9,450 bases of DNA from a virus (taxonomy: Duplodnaviria > Heunggongvirae > Uroviricota > Caudoviricetes), in IMG/VR virus record IMGVR_UViG_2711768034_000006, positions 1 to 9,450 of that record; one strand, written 5' to 3'. This document shows positions 1-9,450 of the stretch, in pieces; position 1 is the first letter of the stretch; each line of letters begins with the position of its first letter. The notes beneath the pieces were generated by a model. It did no database searches. It saw only the letters and a list, made by a program, of their open reading frames with translations, and had not been told where the DNA came from. The translations under genes were made by a program, and so were the position numbers.

Positions 1-3
1 ACG

Positions 4-228
4 TTACGGGCTGGCAAACGGCACGATTTCGGCTGATGCCACCTCCCTGGTGCGATAACTACACAGCAGGTTCCGCCCTAGCTTGACCAGTTCCTGCTGC
101 ACGCCTGGCAGCCGGTCGCGAGCATGGTCTACCGCTTCCTGTTCAGTGGCGAAACCCTCCATAATTTCGGTTTCGGTGTAGGTGCCGTGTTCCGGGTCAA
201 AAGCAATGATATATGCGCGATAACTCAT
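4..228 (-). CDS. Hypothetical small protein (74 aa), last gene of primase operon
   Basis: ATG at 228 preceded by GAGGG Shine-Dalgarno about 8 nt upstream; 10 nt after primase stop; followed (via wrap) by intrinsic terminator; no family recognised. Confidence 0.55.
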   Translation of the reverse strand: MSYRAYIIAFDPEHGTYTETEIMEGFATEQEAVDHARDRLPGVQQELVKLGRNLLCSYRTREVASAEIVPFASP

Positions 229-238
229 GGTTTAGCCC

Positions 239-2554
239 TCAGAACGGTTTATCTTCGCCGTCACCGGCTGTTTCTGTCATCACTTCCTGTGCGTCACACA
301 GGGGCGGCATACCTGCACGCGCCATCTGCGCTTCACGTGACTGCGATTTGCCGTCAGCGTTCAGCCATTTGGCCTTATTGCGCAGAATCCAGCAGCGGCT
401 TGCCTTGCCGTGAACCTTAATCGGCCCATCAATTTGCAGCGCGCCAGCTTCTTCCATTGCGCGGCGCATGGCAGGTGTGAAGCGGCTTTCTTCACCGTCT
501 GACAGCACATTTGCAATGTCACCTTGCGTGATAACGTCAACCGGCCATGACAGCACCAGGCGGTCAGCGTTCTTCTGCGTCATCGACTTCGCAGCGCCAA
601 TCACTGACTGTTTGGCCGCGTTCATCGGCGGGCGTTCGCCAGGGTTAAAGCTGCTTATGTCGCGCTCCGCCAGGAACACAGCCACAGCGTTGATAAACTC
701 GCGGTCGTTCAGCGCAGCATAGAGCGTGGCGTAAACTTCCTGCGGGCGCGGCTCTGCTTCGTGATGCACGATGCGCCAGCGGCGGTCTGTGTCGTCAATC
801 GGCAGCGCGTTAAGGTGGTTACTGAACACCAGCCAGCGCATGGCGTTGTGTTCACGGTGCTGGCGGCCATACTTCGGGTTCACGTCACGATATTCAGCCG
901 TAACGATGCTGCGCAGTTTGTTGGTGTGACTGTAGCGGTTTTCGCTCACCCCGGCCTGAATCTCGTCAACGATGGCCAGAACGCGCCCAGCTAACTGGCC
1001 GTTGAACTGGCTATCAAGCAGGTTAGGCAGGTCCACGTTCGGTGCCACATAGCCACGCCATACGCGCGCCAGGACGCTGGCCAGCCAGTTGCGGCCTGTG
1101 CCGGTTTTGTTGGCCACGTGCAGCCAGCCATAGTGCGGAAGTTCGCCTGGCTTCTGCTCCAGGTGTGCCAGCCAATCCAGGAATTTTTCGCGCTCTATGG
1201 CATCCGGGAATAGGTAGGCTACATGGTCCAGAAACAGGCTGATGCCTGTCGTGGCTTCTTTGCGTTCGAGCGGTCGCCAGGTGTTGATTGCAGGGCGTCC
1301 ATCCGGGTCACGGCAGAAGATGCCCGCGCCAGGGTGGAATGTCCGAGTGATAACCGTTTTGCGCTGCGGGTCTTGTTGCCACAGAACGGCGGTAGGCACC
1401 GGCTTTTTGCGCTCGTCGCTCAGTGTCATTGACGCTGACGTAAGCTGGCGGAATTCCTTCCAGGTCATAAACATTGTTGTGTCATTGACGCTGGCCACCA
1501 TTTCACCGCTTGCGATCCACACCATAGATTCCAGCATTTCTTCGCGGGACATCGACGGCGGCAGGATGCTGACTGTTTCCGGCTGTTGCAGGCGGGCGTT
1601 TTCTTCCTGCTGCAAACGGCGGCGGGTTTCTTCCGCCACGTCAACCACGCCACCAGCGCGCGCATTGTTAAGCGCAGCCAGGACCGCATCAGCACCTTGC
1701 TCCTGGTGCAAATCATTAACATCTTTGCCTTCTGCCAGGTCGGACGGCAGGGTGGCAACCGCAAAGCCAGTGCGGAAAGCGTCAGATTCTTTGCCACGGT
1801 CAGGGACTATGACCGGAACAGCACCAGCGGCCTTGATGATGTCGGCAGCCTTGCGGATGTTGCCAGCACCAAAGGAAACCACGGCAGCGCAGCCGGTGAC
1901 GGCGTTCACGCTCCAGGCGTGGCCGATACCTTCCACGATGTAGGCTTTCTGGCCTTTCTCCAGCTTTCCAGCCGTAAATGTGCCATCCATAGGGCAGCCA
2001 CTGGCGTTGCGCTTCTCTCCTTTGTTTGGCCCTACGAACTGTAAGGAAACCAGGTTTCCGCTTGATGACCAAACAGGGATTGCCAGCCAGCCTTTCAGGC
2101 TTTTGCTTCCGCTCCTGATGTCCTGCGTAACAACGCGCAGGCCGTCAGGCTTGCCCCACTTGCGCATGATGTACGGGTGTTCAGCGGTCGCAGGTTCTGA
2201 CGCAGCCCAAATGTCAATCGGGTTGTGTTTGGCTTTTGGCTTCTCAATAGGTGCCTTTTCCGCCCTGGCTGTTGGGTCATTCCACTGCGCCACGTTACGC
2301 GCCAGCCAGAACAGCGTGTTTTCAGTCACCGAACCGTCAATCTTAAAGCTACCCCAGGCGGAACGCACATCCGCTTCATTGCGGTAGTTGGTTGCGCCCT
2401 GGCTCCAGTTATGGAAGTCATCGAATGACAGGCCAGCAGCCTTTGCAGCGCAGCCAATGCGTGCCCAATCACGGCGTGAACAGTCGTTCGGCAGGGATTC
2501 CAGGGCGCTAAGTGCGCGCTCCATGTTGGTGATTTGGTCGTATGCCAGACTCAT
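239..2554 (-). CDS. Primase / SF3 helicase, phage P4 alpha-like replication initiator (771 aa)
   Basis: Long ORF; N-terminal Trp-rich region; DnaG/Toprim-like EGxxxA motif (IVEGIGHAW, aa 206-214); helicase-like region with Walker B-like LAIVDEIQ (aa 524-531) and SF3 motif C-like LVFSNH (aa 575-580); ATGA start/stop overlap with upstream orf77; GGGGG Shine-Dalgarno. Confidence 0.85.
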   Translation of the reverse strand: MSLAYDQITNMERALSALESLPNDCSRRDWARIGCAAKAAGLSFDDFHNWSQGATNYRNEADVRSAWGSFKIDGSVTENTLFWLARNVAQWNDPTARAEKAPIEKPKAKHNPIDIWAASEPATAEHPYIMRKWGKPDGLRVVTQDIRSGSKSLKGWLAIPVWSSSGNLVSLQFVGPNKGEKRNASGCPMDGTFTAGKLEKGQKAYIVEGIGHAWSVNAVTGCAAVVSFGAGNIRKAADIIKAAGAVPVIVPDRGKESDAFRTGFAVATLPSDLAEGKDVNDLHQEQGADAVLAALNNARAGGVVDVAEETRRRLQQEENARLQQPETVSILPPSMSREEMLESMVWIASGEMVASVNDTTMFMTWKEFRQLTSASMTLSDERKKPVPTAVLWQQDPQRKTVITRTFHPGAGIFCRDPDGRPAINTWRPLERKEATTGISLFLDHVAYLFPDAIEREKFLDWLAHLEQKPGELPHYGWLHVANKTGTGRNWLASVLARVWRGYVAPNVDLPNLLDSQFNGQLAGRVLAIVDEIQAGVSENRYSHTNKLRSIVTAEYRDVNPKYGRQHREHNAMRWLVFSNHLNALPIDDTDRRWRIVHHEAEPRPQEVYATLYAALNDREFINAVAVFLAERDISSFNPGERPPMNAAKQSVIGAAKSMTQKNADRLVLSWPVDVITQGDIANVLSDGEESRFTPAMRRAMEEAGALQIDGPIKVHGKASRCWILRNKAKWLNADGKSQSREAQMARAGMPPLCDAQEVMTETAGDGEDKPF

Positions 2555-2784
2555 GCCGCACCCCCTGCCTTGCGCTGCATATCCAGCGCCATTTGCCAGG
2601 CGTCCACGCGGTTGAACGGGAAGCGGGTGTTCTCTGCCAGGTGCCCCAGGTAGATGGAATATTGCAGCGGGCGGCCAGACTGGATGGCCTGCTTAATCAG
2701 TTCCTGCATGATGGCCACGCACTGTGCGTGCGTCTGGCTGGTAGCAGGTTCGCGCATAAGGCGATGCAGGGTGATGATGCTCAT
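2551..2784 (-). CDS. Hypothetical small protein (77 aa), tandem paralog of orf91
   Basis: ATGA overlaps at both ends (2781-2784 and 2551-2554); GGGGGTGCG motif just upstream of ATG; shares DAW motif and AGGA C-terminus with orf91. Confidence 0.55.
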   Translation of the reverse strand: MSIITLHRLMREPATSQTHAQCVAIMQELIKQAIQSGRPLQYSIYLGHLAENTRFPFNRVDAWQMALDMQRKAGGAA

Positions 2785-3056
2785 TTCGCACCCCCGGCAA
2801 TCTGCGCCAGGACGGTGGCCACTTCGCGTTCCGCCAGTTGTTCAGCGTAGGCGTGCGCAGTGATGCGCCAGGCGTCATCTTTGTTCAGGCGGTAGGCTTT
2901 GTTCCCGCGCATTACAATGCGGTAGGTTGCTTCCGCTGTGTCGGTGATGCTTGAACCGTTGCGCAGCATAGCGTCAGCGAATTTGAACGCAGCATCACAG
3001 CGAGTTTCAACGGTTCTGGTTTTCAGGATGGCGTCAGCCAGGTCGTGCAATTTCAT
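2781..3056 (-). CDS. Hypothetical small protein (91 aa), first gene of primase operon
   Basis: ATG at 3056 with GAGGAA Shine-Dalgarno about 8 nt upstream; translationally coupled to orf77; no family recognised. Confidence 0.55.
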   Translation of the reverse strand: MKLHDLADAILKTRTVETRCDAAFKFADAMLRNGSSITDTAEATYRIVMRGNKAYRLNKDDAWRITAHAYAEQLAEREVATVLAQIAGGAK

Positions 3057-3064
3057 TTCGCATT

Positions 3065-3083
3065 CCTCAATATTTCGTTGAGG
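3065..3083. promoter_or_regulatory. Perfect inverted repeat CCTCAA-N7-TTGAGG overlapping the orf91 ribosome-binding site
   Basis: Read directly; on the mRNA the GAGG Shine-Dalgarno lies inside the potential stem. Confidence 0.35.
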
Positions 3084-3122
3084 CTGCGCTAAAATCGGTG
3101 GCTCAATGAAGGGGGGTTTAAC

Positions 3123-3151
3123 TTGCTAAAGGTAAAGGTCTTTGCTAGTAT
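3123..3151 (+). promoter_or_regulatory. Candidate sigma70-like promoter on plus strand (TTGCTA-17-TAGTAT), antisense to operon leader
   Basis: Hexamers with 17-nt spacer read from sequence; 4/6 match each to consensus; lies about 40 nt upstream of a plus-strand terminator-like hairpin. Confidence 0.25.
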
Positions 3152-3188
3152 TTTTCCTAGTCAGGCCGCTAACCTAGACTTTCATTAA

Positions 3189-3229
3189 GCCCCCTGGATT
3201 GTTCGCGCAGTCCGGGGGTTTTCCTTTTT
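3189..3229 (+). terminator. Plus-strand intrinsic terminator-like hairpin (CCCCC..GGGGG stem) followed by TTTTCCTTTTT
   Basis: Five consecutive G-C pairs (3190-3194 with 3214-3218) then T-rich tract 3219-3229; no plus-strand CDS upstream, so it would end a short antisense RNA. Confidence 0.35.
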
Positions 3230-3252
3230 GTGGCGGTGTGCAAGCGCCACAA
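3228..3252. promoter_or_regulatory. Perfect 8-bp inverted repeat TTGTGGCG-N9-CGCCACAA at predicted transcription start of primase operon (operator candidate)
   Basis: Read directly; lies immediately downstream of the candidate -10 element; related ATTGTGGC motif recurs at 8163-8170 upstream of operon 2. Confidence 0.35.
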
Positions 3253-3257
3253 TTCGA

Positions 3258-3285
3258 ATGATACCCTGCAATCCGGTTTCTGCAA
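3258..3285 (-). promoter_or_regulatory. Candidate sigma70 promoter for orf91-orf77-primase-orf74 operon (TTGCAG-16-TATCAT on minus strand)
   Basis: -35 at 3285..3280, -10 at 3263..3258; about 200-nt leader to orf91 start. Confidence 0.35.
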
Positions 3286-3354
3286 GCTATTTTGCCAAAA
3301 TATAGGCCGAAAATTCATAAATAATTTCAGGCATTTAAAAAGGTAAATGTCGCT

Positions 3355-3384
3355 CATAATCCCACATAATCCGGCATAATCGGT
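3355..3384. repeat. Three direct repeats of CATAATC at exact 10-bp spacing (3355, 3365, 3375)
   Basis: CATAATCCCA / CATAATCCGG / CATAATCGGT read directly; helical phasing suggests a protein-binding array; near-identical array at 8220-8249. Confidence 0.5.
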
Positions 3385-3402
3385 TAATAAATGCTAACCA
3401 TA

Positions 3403-3431
3403 AAAAAAAGCCAGAGTTTTCACCCAGGCTT
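3403..3431 (-). terminator. Candidate intrinsic terminator downstream of tape-measure gene
   Basis: Minus-strand RNA forms an imperfect GC stem (3430..3411) followed by eight U (plus-strand A8 at 3403-3410), about 27 nt after TMP stop. Confidence 0.4.
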
Positions 3432-3457
3432 TGGTTGCAGTCATCAATTTCATTTCA

Positions 3458-5734
3458 TTACGGTGCTGCTAATCCGTCATTCATCATGCTACGATTTCGG
3501 ATTCCTTGCTGCTGTTTCAGCTTCTGCGCCACCTTATTTGCCAGCGCATCTTCATTCATGCCAGGCTCGGCCTTCACGTTGATGGTGTACTGGTCGTTCG
3601 TGTTCACCGTTGTGTTGCCGGTGCGGTTAGCCAGTGCCGGTGAAGGCAAGGACGCACCAGGGGCGGCGGTCGCTGCTGGCTGGCTGCTTTCGTCTTCACC
3701 GAACGGATTGCTAAAGAAATCTTTGGTTTTCTGCCACGCACCACCAGCAACATCAGACACGGCGTTTTTAAACTCCAGTGCCTTGTTGGTCAGGTTGCCG
3801 ATGTTGTCAGACACCCACAGAATCTTATCAATCAGGAACGTGATCGGTGCGGTCACAAGCTCGATGCCAGCCGCCAGGGTCTTACCGAACGTCATCCCCA
3901 TTTTACCGGCCTTATCCAGTTCCTCGCCGCTGTATTTGACCGGTTCGGTCAGTGACGTGAACCAGTTGAAAACCGTCTTAACCGCAGCACCCACACCATC
4001 AATGACAGGTTTCAGCGGCCCCATGCGTTCATAAAGGCGGCTCAGAGCTTCGCTAAGCGGTTCCAGCCCGGATTTGATGCCTTCACCCACTCCGCCAAAG
4101 AAAGCCTTCACACCGGCCCAATGGCGGTAAATCTGATAACCTGCCAGCGCCAGGCCAGCTACGGCAGCACCCACGCCAGTGGATATGAACGCCGCACCAA
4201 CGGCACGAATGCCGGTAGCCACCGCAGGCAGGCCACGGGTGCTGGCCAGAACGGCAGATGCGTTCATGCGGGCAAACAGGCTGGACATCTGCAACACGCC
4301 ACCTTTCAGGAACGTGAACGCAAAGCCAGCGGCGAACGTCGCCACACGTAGTGCCACCAGTGCACTGGAACCAATAACCACTGCTTTGGTCACGGTAGGG
4401 TATTCGCGCGCCAGTTCGGCAACCTTGCCGATAACCGGGCCAACGGTAGCCAGAACGCCGTTGAATGCTGGCAGCAGCACTGTGCCGATCGTGACGCCCA
4501 GGTTAGACACACGGTTGTTGAAAATCTTAAGCTGTGCCGACGTTTTGGCGGTGGCTGCCTCATATTCAGCCTGCATAGAACCGGCATATTTGGTCTTGTC
4601 TTTGACCATGTCCAGATTCTTTTGGTACGTATCAAGCTGTGTCAGCATTGGTGCGATAGCGCCAATCGATTCCTTACCAAACAGTTGCGAAAGCGTTGCC
4701 GCCTGCATGTGTTTTGGCAGCTTGCTGATCTTGGACAGGATGACGCGGATTGTTTCATCGGCGTTCAGTTGCATTGATTTTGCAACCTGCTTGGATGTGA
4801 AGCCAAGCTGTTTAAACGCTTCACGCTGTGACTTCGTGGCGGATGCGCCAGCGGTCAGGGATAGCAGCAGGTTTTTAATACCGGTGGCCGCAATCTCATT
4901 CTGCACGCCCATACCGCGCAGCGTTGCACCCATCGCAGCGATAGAACCGGAAGCTGCACCAGCGACGCTGCCAAGCGGCCCGATGCGCTGCGTGATTTCC
5001 AGGATGTCTTTGGCTGATGCGGCGGTGTTGTTGCCCAGGTAGTTGATCTTGTCAGCCAGAACGTTCATCTGGTCCTGCGTCATCCCGAAGGCGGCGCGCA
5101 TCTCTGCCATTGCCTGGCCTGCCTGGTCGGCGCTGACGTCAAAAGCCACACCCATTTTGATGGCCGATTCAGCAAACTTGGTTAGTTCGCTGGTGGCGAT
5201 GCCTGATTGAGCACCAGCGGCAACAATCTTGCCGATTTCGTTGGCTGCCATCGGCATTTTGGTTGACATATCCTGGATAGCCTGGCCCATCTTAACCAGG
5301 CCGTCAGGGGTTTCGAAGTTGGCAACCTTGCGGATATCTGCCAGCGTATCTTCAAAATCCATAGCCTGTTTGATCGGTACAGCTACCGTTGCGCCAAGTG
5401 CGACAGTCCCCAGGATTCCTTCTTTGTAGCCTTGACGCTTCGCCAGGTTGCGTTCGCGGGCATCCTCCACGCGTTTCAGGCGTTCGGTGGCAGAACGAAG
5501 GCGTTCAACCTGCCCGACAACCGTTTGATAGCGGTCCTTCATGCGGGAGAATATCGCGCTATCCTGGCCATAACGCTTCATTGCTTCATTTAACTGGCGC
5601 TGTTCGCGCGACAGCTTAGAGATTGCGCTACCAATCTCGACGGTATTTTTCTTTACAGTTCCAAATGCACCACGAAGGCTGCCGGAAACGGCCCCACCAA
5701 TCGTGATTTTTGCATTTAACTTCTTGTTGGCCAT
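3458..5734 (-). CDS. Phage tail tape-measure protein-like (758 aa)
   Basis: Coiled-coil, A/G/Q-rich N-terminal half typical of tape-measure core regions; long central hydrophobic Gly/Ala-rich segment (about aa 440-540); size typical of siphovirus tape-measure proteins; ATG at 5734. Confidence 0.75.
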   Translation of the reverse strand: MANKKLNAKITIGGAVSGSLRGAFGTVKKNTVEIGSAISKLSREQRQLNEAMKRYGQDSAIFSRMKDRYQTVVGQVERLRSATERLKRVEDARERNLAKRQGYKEGILGTVALGATVAVPIKQAMDFEDTLADIRKVANFETPDGLVKMGQAIQDMSTKMPMAANEIGKIVAAGAQSGIATSELTKFAESAIKMGVAFDVSADQAGQAMAEMRAAFGMTQDQMNVLADKINYLGNNTAASAKDILEITQRIGPLGSVAGAASGSIAAMGATLRGMGVQNEIAATGIKNLLLSLTAGASATKSQREAFKQLGFTSKQVAKSMQLNADETIRVILSKISKLPKHMQAATLSQLFGKESIGAIAPMLTQLDTYQKNLDMVKDKTKYAGSMQAEYEAATAKTSAQLKIFNNRVSNLGVTIGTVLLPAFNGVLATVGPVIGKVAELAREYPTVTKAVVIGSSALVALRVATFAAGFAFTFLKGGVLQMSSLFARMNASAVLASTRGLPAVATGIRAVGAAFISTGVGAAVAGLALAGYQIYRHWAGVKAFFGGVGEGIKSGLEPLSEALSRLYERMGPLKPVIDGVGAAVKTVFNWFTSLTEPVKYSGEELDKAGKMGMTFGKTLAAGIELVTAPITFLIDKILWVSDNIGNLTNKALEFKNAVSDVAGGAWQKTKDFFSNPFGEDESSQPAATAAPGASLPSPALANRTGNTTVNTNDQYTINVKAEPGMNEDALANKVAQKLKQQQGIRNRSMMNDGLAAP

Positions 5735-5755
5735 AATAATTGTGCTCTCAAGGAA

Positions 5756-5962
5756 TTAATTAAGTAAATTTTCTGCAAGGGTGTGTTCACCGATTGCCCG
5801 CAAGGCGGCAGCGGCCAGTTGCAGGGCGCATTCGGTGCGGTAGTCTCGCTGTTTCTGCATTCCCTCCGCTGTTTCGCAAACCATAACTTTGGGCAGGACC
5901 ATATCCACCAGTTCAGGCCAGGGGTTTGTTCCTTCCGGTTTTGTGTGAATACGGTCCAGCAT
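5756..5962 (-). CDS. Hypothetical small protein (68 aa)
   Basis: ATG with AAGGGGG Shine-Dalgarno 6-7 nt upstream; immediately upstream of tape-measure gene; no family recognised. Confidence 0.45.
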   Translation of the reverse strand: MLDRIHTKPEGTNPWPELVDMVLPKVMVCETAEGMQKQRDYRTECALQLAAAALRAIGEHTLAENLLN

Positions 5963-5971
5963 GGTGCCCCC

Positions 5972-6181
5972 TTATGCGGTTTTGCTTTCTGTTGGTTTGT
6001 CGTTGGCGGTGATGTCGCGCATCCCAAACGTGATACCTTTCCAGGACTTCATCGCGCCGCTAAGGTTCTTGATCGCCAACTTTTGTGCGTCGGTCAGTTG
6101 GCTTGCGTTGTTCTTCGTCATCTTGTCGGCTACGCCGATGACGTTCAGAACGGCTTCATAAATGTTGTTGTTGGTTGCCAT
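5972..6181 (-). CDS. Hypothetical small protein (69 aa)
   Basis: ATG at 6181, GGAG about 10 nt upstream; 9-nt gap to orf68; no family recognised. Confidence 0.45.
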   Translation of the reverse strand: MATNNNIYEAVLNVIGVADKMTKNNASQLTDAQKLAIKNLSGAMKSWKGITFGMRDITANDKPTESKTA

Positions 6182-6183
6182 TC

Positions 6184-6501
6184 TTATGCGCTCCGCACCA
6201 GGATAGCGCCGCGCTTCACTGCCTGGCGCTTGGCCCGTTCACCGGAACTGATGCGGCTGGATGGTTGCCACTTCTTGCGTTCCAGGGTCGATGCGTGGCT
6301 TTCCGCTTCGTTGCGCATGGCGCGACCGGCTTCATCGGTCATGTGTTCGAATGCGTTTAAACGGTTGCGAAGGCTGGCCAGCAGGTCGGCTGCTTCGTAG
6401 CTGATTGGGTTTTTCTCTGAAATGGTTTGGAAACGCTTTGTTTCGCTAAGGATCAAACGCGCTTCTTCTTTCATTGATTCGTACAGGTCATGGTTTTTCA
6501 T
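6184..6501 (-). CDS. Hypothetical protein (105 aa from internal ATG; ORF-track start at 6633 probably a spurious extension)
   Basis: N-terminal 44 codons of the long ORF are W/S/T/P/H-rich and not protein-like; MKNHDLYE start at 6501 gives a helical, basic-tailed protein; no clear Shine-Dalgarno at either start. Confidence 0.4.
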   Translation of the reverse strand: MKNHDLYESMKEEARLILSETKRFQTISEKNPISYEAADLLASLRNRLNAFEHMTDEAGRAMRNEAESHASTLERKKWQPSSRISSGERAKRQAVKRGAILVRSA

Positions 6502-6715
6502 AGTATTGGCCGCTAACAATAGTTGTTGATGATTAAGTGAGTGCGCGCTTTTAGGTGACAGGTGCGGCGCAACCGGTGTGGAATTAGTGGTGGTTTTGAC
6601 CGTCCAGGATGACCACCAACCTGGTTCCAGCATCCATCGTCTGAGGAACGATGAAGGTTAAATTTGGCCGGTTATTTTGGGCACAGGGAACCGGTGAAAC
6701 CTGTATTCTTGGCCA

Positions 6716-6880
6716 TTATTTGCCGTTCAGCCCGCTACTCAGAAACTTTTCAATCACCTGGCTGCGTGAAGGGCGGATGCCTGTTCTGCGTTCCAGTTTG
6801 GCTTGCTCTCTTTCGACCTGGCGCACCAGGTCAGGGGCGAGGCGTACCGTTACGTGCTGGCGTGTTTCTTGTCGTTTCAT
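6716..6880 (-). CDS. Ribbon-helix-helix (Arc/CopG-like) DNA-binding protein, 54 aa
   Basis: My own translation of the minus strand: MKRQETRQHVTVRLAPDLVRQVEREQAKLERRTGIRPSRSQVIEKFLSSGLNGK; beta-strand/helix/helix pattern resembling Arc; below the ORF-track size cutoff; ATG 3 nt after orf104 stop. Confidence 0.7.
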   Translation of the reverse strand: MKRQETRQHVTVRLAPDLVRQVEREQAKLERRTGIRPSRSQVIEKFLSSGLNGK

Positions 6881-6883
6881 GGC

Positions 6884-7198
6884 TTAATACCTGCTCATCC
6901 AGCTTTCGCGCTTCTGTTTCGGGCGCTGCTCGCGGTAGTGACTGCGCACCAGGGAGGCGAGGTAATTCACGGCGCGTTCAATCTGGTACTGCTTAAGCTC
7001 CGGGTAAGCCTTGCGAATCCATTTTTCAGCAGCGTCATCGCTGTAGATGAATCCTGACCAGCCAACCGGCTGCACTACGATGCGCGGTGTGTTTTCATCA
7101 CCGTGGCGCACATACATGGCCACACCTTCGATAGCTGCCAGGATTTCACCCGGCAGGGCAGCGCGCTCCGCTGCCGCTTTTTTGCTGCCCCACCACAT
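6884..7198 (-). CDS. Hypothetical protein (104 aa; ORF-track start at 7204 is TTG)
   Basis: ATG at 7198 sits 2 nt after the upstream TGA; AAGG Shine-Dalgarno about 7 nt upstream; no family recognised. Confidence 0.5.
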   Translation of the reverse strand: MWWGSKKAAAERAALPGEILAAIEGVAMYVRHGDENTPRIVVQPVGWSGFIYSDDAAEKWIRKAYPELKQYQIERAVNYLASLVRSHYREQRPKQKRESWMSRY

Positions 7199-7200
7199 GA

Positions 7201-8085
7201 TCAAGCCTTCCAGAACATAGTTGAGTCAGGCACCAGTGCGGATGCGTTCACCCACACAACGATTTCAACGGCACCATTCAGCACGCGGCGGGCGGTGACG
7301 CGGATTTCATCATCCAGGGCAACGGCTGCATTGCCGAAAGCGCCAATGATTGTGCTGGAAGTCTGGCCGCTGATTTCAGCGCGTACACCGTAGGCACGCA
7401 GAACGCCGTCTTGCAGTTCCAGGCCGGTGCAATCACCGCCAACAATGGCTTTAACTTCATCAAAGCGCAGGTTTTTGGCTGCAATCTTCTGCGCCACTGC
7501 GGTGAATGACGGGCTGGTAAGGGTTTCCGCTGCGCTTTCCAGGTGGTTCAGCAGCACGAAGTCAGCCAGATCGGCAATACCGCGTTCAATGGCGGTGTTG
7601 ACCGCTTCCAGCACTGTATCGTCAGCGAATTCGTGTTTCAGTTGCTGGCGGGTCAGGGTGTAGCCAACGCCGTAAGCCGGTGCGGTGTTGTGGTCGAATG
7701 CTGCAACCATGTACGGCTTGCCGCTCATGCTGATTTCTTCGCCGTCAGTAACTTTGGCGAACGCACCAGGGCGGATGACAACGAAGCGGTCAGCCACTTC
7801 GAGGCCAGTCGTTGCACCAGTCTGGCCAGTCGGCTGCGTGGTCATCGGGCCAGGAATGCGGATGATTTCAGCGCCTGCCTGTGCCACCAGCGAACGTTCA
7901 GCCAGAACAGCGTTGAAGGTGGTCTGCTTGCCACCTTTCGGGGTCAGCACGTCATTCATGGACAGGTAGCGAACTGCTGCCGGTTCCATAGGGATAAATT
8001 GAGTAATATCACCGTTGCCATCAGTGCGAACATGGCCGCCCTGGTGGTTCAACGCGTCGTTGATAAGTTGAGATAAAACGTTCAT
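7201..8085 (-). CDS. Beta-rich structural-like protein of unknown family (294 aa), first gene of operon 2
   Basis: ORF-track start at 8169 is TTG with a non-protein-like leader; ATG at 8085 has GGAG 8-9 nt upstream; A/G/T/V-rich composition like capsid or tail proteins; no motif recognised. Confidence 0.65.
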   Translation of the reverse strand: MNVLSQLINDALNHQGGHVRTDGNGDITQFIPMEPAAVRYLSMNDVLTPKGGKQTTFNAVLAERSLVAQAGAEIIRIPGPMTTQPTGQTGATTGLEVADRFVVIRPGAFAKVTDGEEISMSGKPYMVAAFDHNTAPAYGVGYTLTRQQLKHEFADDTVLEAVNTAIERGIADLADFVLLNHLESAAETLTSPSFTAVAQKIAAKNLRFDEVKAIVGGDCTGLELQDGVLRAYGVRAEISGQTSSTIIGAFGNAAVALDDEIRVTARRVLNGAVEIVVWVNASALVPDSTMFWKA

Positions 8086-8219
8086 TAAAAATGCTCCGGT
8101 TGTTGTGCAATAAATCGTCTGGAATGACTTAAAGATATACAGTAACCAGACCGAACACAATAGCCACAATGTGAGCTTTTTAATGTAAAATCAGTAACTT
8201 ATAACCCTGAATACTTGCA

Positions 8220-8249
8220 AATAACCAGGCATAATCCGGCGTAATCGAT
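8220..8249. repeat. Second copy of the phased 10-bp repeat array (AATAACCAGG / CATAATCCGG / CGTAATCGAT) upstream of operon 2
   Basis: Shares the 17-mer CATAATCCGGC[A/G]TAATCG with 3365-3381. Confidence 0.45.
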
Positions 8250-8379
8250 ATTTACACATCTTTACAATTCAGCATGTGTAAAACGTGTTCGCTTTATTTT
8301 GCAATCGCGCACGTATGGTGCCAGTGCTTTGATAAGGTTCACATAAATGATTGATTTACTTGACGTAATCATAAAGTGA

Positions 8380-8570
8380 GTTTTGGAGGGGCACGCACAA
8401 CGCGAATTACGCGGGACCAATGCCCCCGCCCTGTACTGCCGCCGAGGAGGACCCTTCGATTTTTGAGGCAGGCAGGCGGCCAGGCGGTGCGCGCAAGGTC
8501 CATTATGTTAAATCGCGGAGTTTGCAGGCAGAAAGAAGCACCAGGAAGGTGCTGGCAGGCGAACGGCGCA
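8380..8570. other. GC-rich non-coding island with nested short hairpins (candidate cos/pac site or structured RNA)
   Basis: Abrupt GC-rich stretch inside an AT-rich intergenic region; inverted repeats GGGGCA/TGCCCC (8388-8426), CGCG-aatta-CGCG (8401-8413), AGCACC-aggaa-GGTGCT (8537-8553); both overlapping ORFs translate to non-protein-like sequence. Confidence 0.3.
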
Positions 8571-9065
8571 TAATCTGACATATTCCGCGCGCTTTCAGCC
8601 CGTATTCACTCAGGCTTATTGTTGCGATATGTGCAACGTTCTGGCTGTTTACTGAACAGCTACTGTTTGAACGCAAAACAAGGCTGAAAGGCTCGTTTCC
8701 TGTAGTTACATCATACTTCTGTATGTTGTACCTATTCCGGCTGCTGCTTTGGTTAGACGTGAAAAAGCGTGGTTACGAATGAGCGGACCACCACCAGCAC
8801 CCATGCCGCCCAGGCACCCCATCCGGTTACAACGCTGAATTGAGTTGTAACCGTGTTATGTTTCTGAAAAATAACAAATTTCGTGCAATCGGTTACAACG
8901 GTTACGCCAAGTTCATAAAGTTTGGAAAAAGCACTATGGGTATATAGGAATATACGAATTTCTTTTTTTTACTAATCTGTTGTAACCATTGTAACCGGAA
9001 TGGGTAAAATCATTAATATTCAGTGGCTTGCGTGGTTACAACGCCGGTTACAACACCGATTTTGC

Positions 9066-9092
9066 GTTGTAACCGTTGTAACCGTTGTAACC
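9066..9092. repeat. Three perfect tandem copies of GTTGTAACC
   Basis: Read directly. Confidence 0.9.
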
Positions 9093-9103
9093 GTAGTAGG
9101 CAT

Positions 9104-9129
9104 AAAAAAGCCCCGGCAGATGCCAGGGC
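9104..9129 (-). terminator. Intrinsic terminator ending the primase operon
   Basis: Minus-strand RNA GCCCUGGC-AUCU-GCCGGGGC (8-bp stem with one G-U, 4-nt loop) followed by UUUUUU, 25 nt after orf74 stop. Confidence 0.55.
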
Positions 9130-9151
9130 GGTCAGAACAAAAATTGTTGTA

Positions 9152-9450
9152 ACGTTACGGGCTGGCAAACGGCACGATTTCGGCTGATGCCACCTCCCTG
9201 GTGCGATAACTACACAGCAGGTTCCGCCCTAGCTTGACCAGTTCCTGCTGCACGCCTGGCAGCCGGTCGCGAGCATGGTCTACCGCTTCCTGTTCAGTGG
9301 CGAAACCCTCCATAATTTCGGTTTCGGTGTAGGTGCCGTGTTCCGGGTCAAAAGCAATGATATATGCGCGATAACTCATGGTTTAGCCCTCAGAACGGTT
9401 TATCTTCGCCGTCACCGGCTGTTTCTGTCATCACTTCCTGTGCGTCACAC
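9152..9450. repeat. Wrap-around duplicate of window positions 1-299
   Basis: Identical sequence; the ORF track lists the same 74-aa protein at 4..228 and 9155..9379. Confidence 0.9.
9155..9379 (-). CDS. Second copy of the 74-aa hypothetical protein (same locus as 4..228 via wrap-around)
   Basis: Identical translation in ORF track. Confidence 0.55.
   Translation of the reverse strand: MSYRAYIIAFDPEHGTYTETEIMEGFATEQEAVDHARDRLPGVQQELVKLGRNLLCSYRTREVASAEIVPFASP

What the first reader, a model, noticed from the sequence alone, without database searches (positions are those of the whole stretch)
239..9151. Compact one-strand replicon pairing a P4-alpha-like primase-helicase with a tape-measure gene and no integrase
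In about 9 kb, every gene is co-directional in two operons, with a P4-type replication module and iteron origin. I see no integrase, terminase, portal, capsid protease, tail tube or partition gene. P4-like satellites normally carry int, sid, psu and delta, and plasmids do not normally carry tape-measure genes, so the combination does not fit the architectures I know. A plausible reading is a new kind of plasmid-like phage satellite.
Basis: partly seen in the sequence, partly recalled or inferred. Interest (0 to 1): 0.8.

Follow-up and report, generated by a model that had tools for sequence, protein, structure and literature searches.

The report
Plasmid-borne phage satellite with capsid and tape-measure genes
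This is a complete 9.15-kb circular plasmid of enteric bacteria that looks like a parasite of Jilinvirus-type phages: it carries the phage's DNA-packaging (cos) site plus its own capsid and tail tape-measure genes, but no integrase. That makes it an E. coli/Salmonella example of the recently recognised "satellite-plasmid" lifestyle.

Summary
The window is a closed 9,151-bp circle; bases 1-299 repeat at 9152-9450. All 11 genes lie on the minus strand. Confirmed:
- a PriCT-2/Toprim/SF3-helicase initiator beside eleven GGTTACAAC iterons;
- a genuine 758-aa tape measure protein (TMP);
- no integrase, terminase, portal, protease, tube or partition gene.

The 294-aa protein is an HK97-fold major capsid protein. 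Positions 8392-8466 are a cos site, 38/38 identical to phage HeidiAbel (Bas97) and matching both physical ends of phage ECOO78.

The TMP is full-length colinear (57-60% aa) with Jilinvirus TMPs. Some chromosomal relatives carry a ~350-nt TMP patch 97-99% identical to Bas97.

The cos-capsid-TMP module is 93-96% identical to ~9.5-kb "fis PICI" islands that do carry int and alpA. A Pseudomonas version has the same layout with a Pseudomonas-phage-like TMP and cos.

Best reading: an integrase-less satellite-plasmid, packaged through the helper-type cos, probably contributing its own capsid shell and TMP to the particle.

Satellite-plasmids (Vibrio, 2026), satellite TMPs (PLE, EPIP, 2025) and fis PICIs (2023) are already published. 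This is therefore a new variant of a known kind, with an available helper phage for testing.

The parts
1..299 (.). Terminal overlap of the record (identical to 9152-9450); the unit is a 9,151-bp circle
   Evidence: direct repeat D1, 299 nt, 100%, spacing 9151. Complete circular plasmids of 8.9-9.3 kb are colinear with it.
4..228 (-). g74, a 74-aa protein of unknown function downstream of the primase (same gene as 9155-9379). Conserved in both plasmid and chromosomal relatives.
   Evidence: 87-89% aa identity to L004/L006 islands over 71 aa. dN/dS about 0.2. No family hit.
239..2554 (-). 771-aa replication initiator: PriCT-2 + Toprim primase + SF3 (DUF5906/D5-type) helicase
   Evidence: PF08707 8.5e-15, PF13362 1.3e-4, PF19263 2.3e-16; DNA primase PHROGs; primase chains 6k9c/6k9e, aligned to residues 451-680, 7e-14; P4 alpha: Toprim region only, 27%.
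2551..2784 (-). g77, a 77-aa protein of unknown function; plasmid-specific and constant across both primase types
   Evidence: 97-99% in L001-L003; absent from chromosomal islands
2781..3056 (-). g91, a 91-aa protein of unknown function; first gene of the replication operon; plasmid-specific
   Evidence: 100% in L001-L003
3110..3228 (+). Candidate antisense RNA opposite the leader of the replication operon, ending in a strong terminator (stem 3191-3218 followed by a T run)
   Evidence: 12-bp stem, 7 GC pairs; MFE -41.6 kcal/mol, z -2.58. Function is inferred.
3346..3382 (.). Three GATTATG heptads at 10-bp spacing upstream of the replication operon (candidate operator)
   Evidence: (family D2)
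3458..5734 (-). 758-aa tail length tape measure protein, full-length colinear with Jilinvirus TMPs
   Evidence: HMM hits; 57-60% aa over 99-100% of length to ECOO78, ECO1230-10, Bas97, PT1, ep3; dN/dS 0.21-0.41; mosaic alleles
5756..5962 (-). g68, a 68-aa protein directly upstream of the TMP; conserved in the family; function unknown
   Evidence: No family hit. dN/dS 0.35-0.94 on few substitutions.
5972..6181 (-). g69, a 69-aa accessory gene, present or absent among otherwise colinear relatives
   Evidence: present in L003, L005; absent in L001, L004, L016
6184..6633 (-). g149, a helical protein of unknown function (105 aa if started at the internal ATG, 6184-6501, as RefSeq annotates it on the relatives)
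   Evidence: dN/dS about 0.2. Only sub-threshold DUF7341.
6716..6880 (-). g54, a 54-aa protein with a ribbon-helix-helix-like sequence pattern (candidate DNA-binding regulator)
   Evidence: Sequence pattern read directly, with its counterparts in L005 and L012. Only a weak YlcI/YnfO hit. The assignment is inferred.
6884..7204 (-). g106 (104 aa from the ATG at 7198), always next to the capsid gene; conserved as far as Pseudomonas (33%)
7201..8085 (-). 294-aa HK97-fold major capsid protein, without delta domain or protease
   Evidence: pLDDT 75.6, pTM 0.73; PDB top hits are phage/GTA capsids and encapsulins, E from 2.8e-9; BFVD capsid proteins, E from 3.8e-12; homologs fused to PF04586 prohead protease; one named major capsid protein; dN/dS 0.18-0.32
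8211..8247 (.). GATTACG/GATTATG/GGTTATT heptads at 10-bp spacing upstream of the capsid-TMP operon
   Evidence: conserved in plasmids and chromosomal islands; absent from terS-type variants and from the phages
8392..8466 (.). cos site of Jilinvirus type. The 13-mer GGACCAATGCCCC at 8414-8426 is the sequence present at both ends of the linear ECOO78 record.
   Evidence: 38/38 identical to Bas97 just upstream of terS, E 1.7e-15; matches ECOO78 41255-41289 and 1-53; same core at the end of the phage Arya contig and in the relatives; in 22 of 5,426 E. coli genomes, always once per genome; those cross-checked lie inside the island
8816..9154 (.). Iteron origin: 11 copies of GGTTACAAC in both orientations around an AT-rich stretch, directly downstream of g74
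   Evidence: 11 found vs 1.8 expected. Swapped together with g74 and the primase between plasmids.
9110..9129 (-). Terminator-like hairpin ending the replication operon after g74

Best explanation
The window is an integrase-less phage satellite that lives as a small plasmid (a 'satellite-plasmid'). It most likely parasitises Jilinvirus-type (Iiscvirinae) myoviruses.

Shown:
- It is a closed 9,151-bp circle.
- It has its own primase-helicase and a cognate iteron array.
- It carries a cos site essentially identical to that of Jilinviruses, placed upstream of its late operon just as cos precedes terS in the phage.
- It carries an intact HK97-fold capsid gene and an intact full-length homolog of the Jilinvirus TMP, both under purifying selection.
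- The same late module sits in int/alpA-bearing PICI islands at fis.

Inferred:
1. Between infections it replicates from the iterons using its initiator, possibly under antisense-RNA and heptad-operator control.
2. When a Jilinvirus infects the cell, the helper's lambda-type terminase cuts and packages the plasmid at cos.
3. The satellite capsid protein builds, or takes part in, a shell suited to its genome size. The family is held at about 9-10 kb.
4. The satellite TMP replaces the helper TMP inside helper-made tails, giving chimeric tails as shown experimentally for Vibrio PLEs.
5. The particle injects the DNA into a new cell, where it recircularises at cos and resumes plasmid replication.

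Interference with the helper is likely but untested.
For: Circle and plasmid relatives:
-.

Replication module:
- Domains and iterons.
- Iterons, g74 and the primase are exchanged as one cassette between plasmids.

cos site:
- 38/38 identity to Bas97 upstream of terS, and a match spanning both ends of the linear ECOO78 genome.
- The same core lies at the end of the Arya contig.
- It is present in the relatives.
- It occurs in 22 of 5,426 E. coli genomes, once each; those cross-checked lie inside the island.
- terS-carrying variants have a hybrid cos that differs on the terS-proximal side.

TMP:
- HMM hits.
- 57-60% aa identity over the full length to Jilinvirus TMPs.
- A ~350-nt patch 97-99% identical to Bas97 inside the TMP of chromosomal relatives in five finished genomes.
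- The Pseudomonas relative's TMP is closest to Pseudomonas phages (54-55%), not to the window's TMP (34%). That relative also has a cos-like sequence homologous to the region upstream of phage Persinger's terS.

Capsid protein:
-.
- One relative is fused to a helper-type prohead protease, inside a satellite embedded in the head gene of a Bas97-like prophage.

Selection and family:
- dN/dS 0.14-0.41 for MCP, g106, TMP, g149 and g74.
- PICI kinship: and PMC10111431.

Precedents:
- Functional satellite TMP: PMC11838301.
- Satellite-plasmids: PMC13230959.
Against: - No experiment shows packaging, transfer or induction.
- No helper prophage is co-resident in the 22 cos-positive complete E. coli genomes, so dependence on an infecting phage is assumed.
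- No regulator linking the late operon to helper infection was identified: there is no alpA and no recognisable repressor or antirepressor. The heptad boxes are not found in the phage genomes.
- A lone capsid protein without protease, scaffold or portal may be unable to form a capsid. Capsid genes of a model Gram-negative PICI are reported as not required for transfer (PMC10111431).
- No tail assembly chaperone or hub protein was recognised next to the TMP, unlike in PLE.
- The window's own TMP is only about 60% identical to known phage TMPs.
- The element did not match any IMG/VR viral contig through the cos 30-mer.
Confidence: 0.7

Rival explanations
1. Anti-phage defence plasmid. The capsid-like protein and the TMP act mainly as dominant-negative decoys that poison head and tail assembly of Jilinviruses and protect the host population. 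The plasmid itself is transferred rarely or never.
For: Satellites commonly interfere with helpers, and tail-assembly interference is a known defence strategy (papers listed; PLE Rta). A lone MCP without protease, scaffold or portal is easier to picture as a poison than as a self-sufficient shell. A PICI capsid gene is reported as dispensable for transfer.
Against: A helper-identical cos site placed as in the phage has no role in a pure defence plasmid. The tight 8.9-10 kb size over deep divergence, and terS with a matching hybrid cos in variants, both point to packaging. No PADLOC hit. This reading is not exclusive of the main explanation.
Confidence: 0.12
2. Cryptic plasmid carrying inert leftovers of a phage or PICI late region; the structural genes and cos have no current function.
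For: Plasmids are typed as non-mobilizable. Most small proteins have no recognisable function. Only five examples in PLSDB.
Against: All late genes are intact. dN/dS is 0.14-0.41. The MCP-g106-...-TMP order is kept from E. coli to Pseudomonas at 33-39% protein identity. The cos core is kept at 38/38. Recent recombination with phage TMP in relatives. About 34 of the 104 homologous protein clusters have a longest contig of 8.9-10 kb.
Confidence: 0.06
3. Member of the P4 family of satellites in its plasmid state.
For: Same general logic as P4: a cos shared with a myovirus helper, a Toprim + SF3-helicase initiator of about 775 aa, an iteron origin and a capacity for plasmid life.
Against: No int, sid, psu, delta, epsilon or cI homologs. 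The alpha match is limited to Toprim at 27%. P4 has no capsid or TMP gene. The late module is homologous to fis PICIs instead.
Confidence: 0.03
4. Fragment of an ordinary prophage cut by the window, or an assembly artefact.
For: Two metagenome contigs join this late module to a Bas97-like phage.
Against: The window closes on itself with a 299-bp perfect overlap. Independent finished plasmids of 8.9-9.3 kb from E. coli, Proteus and Salmonella are colinear with it. The two phage-joined contigs are explained by a shared 97-99% identical patch that is also present in finished chromosomal islands.
Confidence: 0.02
5. Autonomous minimal virus, or an encapsulin-like compartment operon on a plasmid.
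For: An HK97-fold shell protein with encapsulin structures among the structural hits. Portal-less mini HK97 elements have been proposed in metagenomes.
Against: No terminase, portal, tail or lysis genes and no cargo protein. The phage-type cos and TMP tie it to a tailed helper.
Confidence: 0.02

Closest known systems
fis-type Gram-negative PICIs (Tommasini, Mageeney & Williams 2023, PMC10111431)
   Same: The stretch cos - capsid gene - g106 - g54 - g149 - g68 - TMP, plus g74, is 87-96% nt identical to ~9.5-kb islands between fis and yhdJ in E. coli chromosomes. Same gene order, same one-strand layout, same size class.
   Different: The window has no integrase, no alpA and no fis attP core. It has a different initiator (PriCT-2/Toprim/DUF5906 instead of VapE-type), its own iterons, and two plasmid-only genes (g91, g77). 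It is a free plasmid. The TMP content of fis PICIs is not mentioned in that paper or its held supplements.
Satellite-plasmids PISP / cf-PISP of Vibrio (PMC13230959, 2026)
   Same: Episomal, integrase-less (PISP) phage satellites that carry capsid gene(s) and are proposed to move in helper-dependent particles.
   Different: Those encode parA/repA, small terminase and protease (PISP) or a full head module (cf-PISP), and no TMP. They were reported only in Vibrio. The window has a primase-helicase, no partition gene, no terS, a single capsid gene and a TMP.
PLE satellites of Vibrio cholerae phage ICP1 (PMC11838301)
   Same: Satellites of a myovirus that encode their own TMP. In PLE the TMP is incorporated into chimeric tails and is needed for transduction. 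This is the best functional precedent for the 758-aa gene.
   Different: PLEs are integrated, about 18 kb, and use the helper's capsid protein with an external scaffold. They pair the TMP with a chaperone and a hub protein, and their TMP is only about 20% identical to the helper's. Here the TMP is 57-60% identical to the helper's, no chaperone or hub was recognised, and the element has its own capsid protein.
Satellite phage P4
   Same: Plasmid-capable satellite of a cos myovirus; Toprim + SF3 helicase initiator with iteron origin; relies on a cos site like the helper's (P4 biology from established knowledge).
   Different: No sid, psu, delta, epsilon, cI or int. P4 remodels the helper's capsid protein and carries no capsid or TMP gene.
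EPIP satellites of Mycolicibacterium (bioRxiv 10.64898/2025.12.02.691453)
   Same: Satellites reported to carry both a major capsid protein and a TMP.
   Different: EPIPs also carry terS, scaffold, head-tail adaptor/stopper and a serine integrase. Actinobacterial host. No relationship was tested.
Capsid-forming PICIs (cf-PICI)
   Same: Satellites that use their own HK97-fold capsid protein rather than the helper's.
   Different: cf-PICIs encode a complete head and packaging set (portal, protease, adaptors, terS) and take only tails. The window has only the capsid protein and additionally a tail component.

Membership tests
Gram-negative PICI (fis subfamily) | Tyrosine integrase at one end and a specific att site (3' end of fis, core TACGGCATGAACTAA) | tested here: not met
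   No integrase domain in any ORF. No match to the att core even with 2 mismatches. Chromosomal relatives have both.
Gram-negative PICI (fis subfamily) | alpA regulator/excisionase next to int | tested here: not met
   No Phage_AlpA/HTH_17 hit in window proteins. Present in relatives L004-L006 and L012.
Gram-negative PICI (fis subfamily) | Replication zone: primase/DUF5906 protein with an origin downstream | tested here: met
   PriCT-2/Toprim/DUF5906 protein. Iteron array downstream of primase-g74.
Gram-negative PICI (fis subfamily) | Late zone with captured helper late genes; homology to known members | tested here: met
   Late module 94-96% nt identical to fis islands. Contains a capsid gene and a TMP.
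Gram-negative PICI (fis subfamily) | Helper-induced excision, replication and packaging | not testable with these tools
   Requires infection or induction experiments.
Satellite-plasmid (PISP sense: episomal phage-dependent satellite) | Extrachromosomal circular replicon with its own replication functions and no integrase | tested here: met
Satellite-plasmid (PISP sense: episomal phage-dependent satellite) | Satellite hallmark genes or sites tying it to a helper (capsid gene clustering with satellite capsids, packaging signal) | tested here: met
   HK97-fold MCP shared with PICI islands and not found in 50,697 phage records. Helper-type cos.
Satellite-plasmid (PISP sense: episomal phage-dependent satellite) | Sequence homology to the Vibrio PISP/cf-PISP elements | not tested
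Gene content differs (no parA/repA/terS/protease).
P4-like satellites | Hallmark set int, alpA, epsilon, delta, sid, psu and alpha | tested here: not met
   Only an alpha-like architecture is present: Toprim 27% over 183 aa, helicase E 0.019. No other P4 gene homolog.
cf-PICI | Complete head module: MCP, protease, portal, head-tail adaptor/connector, terS | tested here: not met
   Only the MCP was detected.
Tail length tape measure protein (758-aa gene) | Match to TMP profiles above the curated cut-off, and colinearity with TMPs of characterised phages | tested here: met
   PF10145 135 bits (cut-off 33.2); TIGR01760 239 bits (cut-off 28.8); phrog_28 1.5e-129; 57-60% identity over 99-100% of length to Jilinvirus TMPs.
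HK97-fold major capsid protein (294-aa gene) | HK97 fold | tested here: met
   AF2 pLDDT 75.6. Foldseek probability 1.00 to many phage capsids: PDB E from 2.8e-9, BFVD E from 3.8e-12, TM 0.4-0.5.
HK97-fold major capsid protein (294-aa gene) | Assembles into a capsid that holds DNA | not testable with these tools
   Supporting context only: homologs are fused to an S78 prohead protease. No sequence-level relation to the Bas97 head protein.
Phage-plasmid | Full set of virion, packaging and lysis genes on a plasmid replicon | tested here: not met
   No terminase, portal, tail tube/sheath, baseplate or lysis genes.

The most novel reading that the evidence does not exclude
A widespread but unrecognised lineage of ~9-kb satellites of Iiscvirinae myoviruses exists in two interchangeable life-styles (fis-integrated PICI and integrase-less plasmid). 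It hijacks the helper at two structural points with just two genes: a stand-alone HK97 capsid protein that builds a miniature shell on helper portal, protease and terminase, and a helper-matched TMP that turns helper tails into satellite-specific chimeric tails. The TMP is repeatedly re-matched to the local helper by recombination.
Probability: 0.3. Interest if true: 0.8.

Novelty: new variant of a known kind. Interest (0 to 1): 0.62.

Why it matters
- **Extends two recent findings to model organisms.** Episomal "satellite-plasmids" were reported only in Vibrio in 2026, and satellite-encoded TMPs that make chimeric tails were reported for PLE in 2025. If the reading holds, both apply to E. coli, Salmonella, Proteus and, through integrated relatives, Pseudomonas.
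- **The system looks easy to test.** The candidate helper HeidiAbel (Bas97) is part of the public BASEL collection and plaques on E. coli K-12 with restored O-antigen. The satellite is a 9-kb plasmid that can be marked and mutated.
- **It would assign a transfer route to "non-mobilizable" plasmids.** These small plasmids have no known means of moving between cells.
- **It links a plasmid form and a chromosomal-island form of one satellite.** The two differ by a swap of the integration/replication cassette.
- **It offers a natural experiment on TMP-tail compatibility.** The alleles are mosaic, and some relatives carry 97-99% identical patches from the phage.
- **A practical consequence for annotation.** Pipelines that treat TMP or capsid genes as prophage signatures, or that require an integrase to call a satellite, will misfile these elements.

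Tried and rejected
- **Small proteins.** Pfam, PHROGs, NCBIfam and PADLOC on g74, g77, g91, g68, g69, g149, g54 and g106 gave only sub-threshold hits.
- **Rfam.** No match on the whole window.
- **Helper control through the GATTATG heptads.** The motif pair is absent from the Bas97 and ECOO78 genomes. The binder remains unknown.
- **Replication module taken from the helper.** Rejected. The primase is only about 28% identical to the Bas97 primase over the N-terminal 345 aa, and g77/g91 have no phage counterpart.
- **Capsid gene derived from the helper's head gene.** No tblastn hit in 50,697 phage records. hhalign against the Bas97 head protein gave probability 5%.
- **Helper-embedded integration into the TMP gene.** I considered this for metagenome contigs L016 and L017. 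I rejected it as the simplest reading after finding the same phage-like patch inside the TMP of finished chromosomal islands. The contigs are most simply assembly chimeras through that shared patch.
- **Salmonella plasmid TMP as a chimera.** My first reading was wrong. It is simply allele B, identical to the Proteus and E. coli pSCU-121-2 allele.
- **Co-resident helper prophage.** None found. The cos core occurs once per genome, and the hits cross-checked lie inside the island.
- **Presence in IMG/VR.** The cos 30-mer hit only phage Arya and one island-bearing contig.
- **P4 membership.** Rejected.

Full report
**What is in the window.**
The first 299 bases are repeated exactly at 9152-9450. 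The sequence is therefore one closed unit of 9,151 bp. All credible genes are on the minus strand. They fall into two blocks.
- The replication block runs from 3056 down to 4: g91, g77, a 771-aa protein and g74, ending in a terminator-like hairpin at 9129-9110.
- The late block runs from 8085 down to 3458: a 294-aa protein, g106, g54, g149, g69, g68 and a 758-aa protein.

The 771-aa protein has PriCT-2, Toprim and DUF5906 (SF3 helicase) domains. It also matches primase PHROGs and PDB primase chains 6k9c/6k9e over residues 451-680. The 758-aa protein is a real tape measure protein (TMP): PF10145 3.5e-39, phrog_28 1.5e-129, TIGR01760 5.4e-71. Eleven copies of GGTTACAAC, against 1.8 expected, flank an AT-rich stretch at 8825-9154. 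No integrase, terminase, portal, protease, tube, sheath, lysis or partition protein was found in four HMM libraries.

The 294-aa protein had no Pfam or PHROG hit, but three lines of evidence identify it as a capsid protein.
- Its family includes two 463-465-aa proteins fused to an HK97-family prohead protease (PF04586), and one member that UniRef names a major capsid protein.
- An AlphaFold2 model built on 22 homologs (pLDDT 75.6, pTM 0.73) matches phage and GTA capsid proteins and encapsulins at probability 1.00. PDB E-values start at 2.8e-9 and BFVD E-values at 3.8e-12.
- It is therefore an HK97-fold major capsid protein (MCP) without a delta domain.

The second missed feature is a cos site. 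A short-word BLAST of the non-coding DNA against candidate helper genomes gave a 38/38 match of window 8392-8429 to phage HeidiAbel (Bas97), just upstream of its terS. It also matched both physical ends of the linear ECOO78 record: 8392-8426 to ECOO78 41255-41289, and 8414-8466 to ECOO78 1-53. The 13-mer GGACCAATGCCCC is present at both ends of that record, which is what one expects if the cohesive end was written twice (inference). The contig carrying phage Arya ends within 4 nt of the same spot. In gene orientation, cos precedes the capsid operon just as cos precedes terS in the phage.

**Who the helper is.**
The TMP is colinear over 99-100% of its length, at 57-60% aa identity, with the TMPs of ECOO78, ECO1230-10, HeidiAbel, PT1, ep3 and Alux-21, and at about 54% with Arya and KA2-1. 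ECOO78 is classified in Jilinvirus, subfamily Iiscvirinae. These are myoviruses of 41-44 kb with lambda-type terminase and portal and P2-type tails. [quoted passage not shown]

Recent physical contact between satellite and phage is shown by relatives. In five finished E. coli chromosomes the satellite TMP contains a ~350-nt patch 97-99% identical to HeidiAbel, flanked by satellite-type sequence.

Two SPAdes metagenome contigs (46.3 and 42.2 kb) run from the satellite late module into a HeidiAbel-like phage through exactly this patch. I first considered a helper-embedded integration. The simplest reading is assembly chimeras across the shared patch. Even so, they place both partners in the same two samples.

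No HeidiAbel-like prophage is co-resident with the satellite. The cos core occurs in 22 of 5,426 complete E. coli genomes, always once per genome, and the hits I cross-checked fall inside the satellite island. The helper is therefore presumably an infecting phage.

**Family.**
- *Plasmid relatives.* Five PLSDB plasmids are near-identical over most of their length and are typed non-mobilizable. They come from E. coli (three), Proteus and Salmonella; four are 8.9-9.3 kb and one is a 17.4-kb probable dimer. About 34 of the 104 homologous capsid-protein clusters have a longest contig of 8.9-10.0 kb.
- *Chromosomal relatives.* The stretch cos-MCP-...-TMP, plus g74, is 87-96% identical to ~9.5-kb islands between fis and yhdJ in 65 E. 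coli chromosomes. Those islands carry int, alpA and a VapE-type primase. They belong to the "fis PICI" subfamily catalogued by Tommasini et al. 2023. The window has no fis att core.
- *Exchange of the replication cassette.* Between plasmids, the iterons, g74 and the primase are exchanged as one cassette while g91 and g77 stay constant. This fits cognate origin-initiator pairs.
- *terS variants.* Variants that carry a small terminase (phrog_57, 4.4e-26) keep the helper-like half of cos but differ on the terS-proximal half. That is the pattern expected if they redirect packaging with their own terS.
- *Pseudomonas relative.* An island of 9.6 kb has the same order: int, alpA, VapE, 70 aa, MCP (39%), g106 (33%), further small genes, gpX, TMP. 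Its TMP is closest to Pseudomonas phages Persinger and PPpW-3 (54-55%) rather than to the window's TMP (34%). Its gpX and its cos-like sequence match Persinger.
- *Contrast between the two structural genes.* The TMP tracks the local helper, whereas the capsid protein has no counterpart in 50,697 phage records.
- *Helper-embedded relative.* One MCP relative fused to a helper-type protease sits in a satellite embedded in the head gene of a HeidiAbel-like Salmonella prophage.

**Are the structural genes functional?**
dN/dS is 0.18-0.32 for the MCP, 0.14-0.22 for g106, 0.21-0.41 for the TMP, and about 0.2 for g149 and g74. The TMP is mosaic. Allele A (window and chromosomal islands) and allele B (three plasmids) differ over the first ~1,450 nt (40-75% nt identity) but share the last ~800 nt at 95-100%.

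**Mechanism: shown versus inferred.**
Shown:
- a circular replicon with initiator and iterons;
- a helper-type cos;
- intact MCP and TMP genes under selection;
- kinship with PICIs;
- recombination with Jilinvirus TMP in relatives.

Inferred:
- Plasmid replication starts at the iterons. It may be tuned by a plus-strand antisense RNA ending at the 3191-3218 terminator. The GATTATG heptad arrays upstream of both operons may also act in control, with the RHH-like g54 as a candidate binder.
- On infection, the helper terminase packages the plasmid from cos.
- The satellite MCP forms or modifies the shell.
- The satellite TMP is built into helper tails, as shown experimentally for PLE (PMC11838301).

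By simple capsid-volume scaling (my own estimate, not a tool result), 9.15 kb would fit a T=3 shell as a monomer. A dimer would fit a T=4 shell. A tetramer of 36.6 kb would be 88% of a 41.3-kb helper genome. I cannot decide between these. The narrow 9-10 kb size range, kept from E. coli to Pseudomonas, argues for a size constraint.

**Comparison with what is known.**
- It works like a P4-type plasmid satellite but is not a P4 family member. Only the Toprim region matches alpha, at 27%, and there is no sid, psu, delta, epsilon or int.
- Its late zone is homologous to PICIs, but it fails the integrase, alpA and att criteria.
- It fits the recently coined satellite-plasmid concept, reported only in Vibrio (PMC13230959), with different gene content.
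- Satellite TMPs were first reported in 2025, for PLE and EPIP.
- The full-text searches I ran found no paper describing TMP-bearing PICIs or plasmids in Enterobacterales.

**Verdict.**
The element is a new variant of a known kind: an enterobacterial, integrase-less satellite-plasmid derived from or sister to fis PICIs, carrying a helper-type cos, its own capsid protein and a helper-matched TMP. Interest is moderate to high because it is directly testable with an available helper phage.

Noticed in passing
L020 (E. coli MY1-8 chromosome) TMP, alignment columns ~1650-2000; corresponds to window ~3750-4100: Five finished E. coli genomes carry, inside the satellite-type TMP of their fis island, a ~350-nt patch 97-99% identical to phage HeidiAbel (Bas97). 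This indicates recent gene conversion between satellite and phage.
   Followed up: yes
L016 (ERZ17860043, 46,282-bp contig) and L017 (ERZ8811409, 42,176-bp contig): Metagenome contigs run from the satellite cos-capsid-TMP module straight into gpU-gpX-gpD and the rest of a Bas97-like phage. The switch lies at or after the shared TMP patch. This is most simply an assembly chimera, but a real recombinant or co-integrate is not excluded.
   Followed up: partly
window 3346-3382 and 8211-8247: Arrays of GATTATG-like heptads at 10-bp spacing sit upstream of both operons. They are conserved in relatives but absent from the helper genomes and from terS-type variants upstream of the capsid gene. The binding protein is unknown, and the co-variation with g54 is inconsistent.
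   Followed up: partly
window 3110-3228 (+): A strong plus-strand terminator (12-bp stem) lies opposite the leader of the replication operon. The 119-nt RNA folds at -41.6 kcal/mol (z -2.58). It is a candidate copy-control antisense RNA; there was no Rfam match.
   Followed up: partly
window 5972-6181 (g69): A 69-aa gene that is present or absent among otherwise colinear relatives: present in L003 and L005, absent in L001, L004 and L016. It is an accessory slot between g149 and g68.
   Followed up: no
L002 (Salmonella plasmid pR17.0904_9.3k) and L005 (E. coli 98197 chromosome), upstream of the capsid gene: Variants that carry a small terminase (phrog_57) have a hybrid cos. The half distal to the capsid operon is identical to the phage, the proximal half is different, and the promoter region is replaced.
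   Followed up: partly
L010/L011 (Salmonella, 10001-11392): A 463-aa fusion of a helper-type prohead-protease domain with the satellite-type capsid domain. It lies in an int-bearing element inserted into the fused head gene of a Bas97-like prophage, i.e. a helper-embedded PICI geometry.
   Followed up: partly
L012/L013 (Pseudomonas chromosomes, 5444-15042): A 9.6-kb island with the same architecture as the E. coli fis islands, plus a P2 gpX-like LysM protein directly upstream of the TMP. Its cos-like sequence and gpX match phage Persinger.
   Followed up: partly
CP077066.1 (E. coli plasmid, 17,382 bp): This record holds the element twice (two places). It is probably a dimer or a duplicated assembly of a ~9-kb plasmid.
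   Followed up: no
window 3458-4270 vs 4270-5734 (TMP): The C-terminal third of the TMP is 95-100% conserved between satellite alleles A and B, whereas the N-terminal two thirds are 40-75% identical. The reason for this split is unknown.
   Followed up: partly
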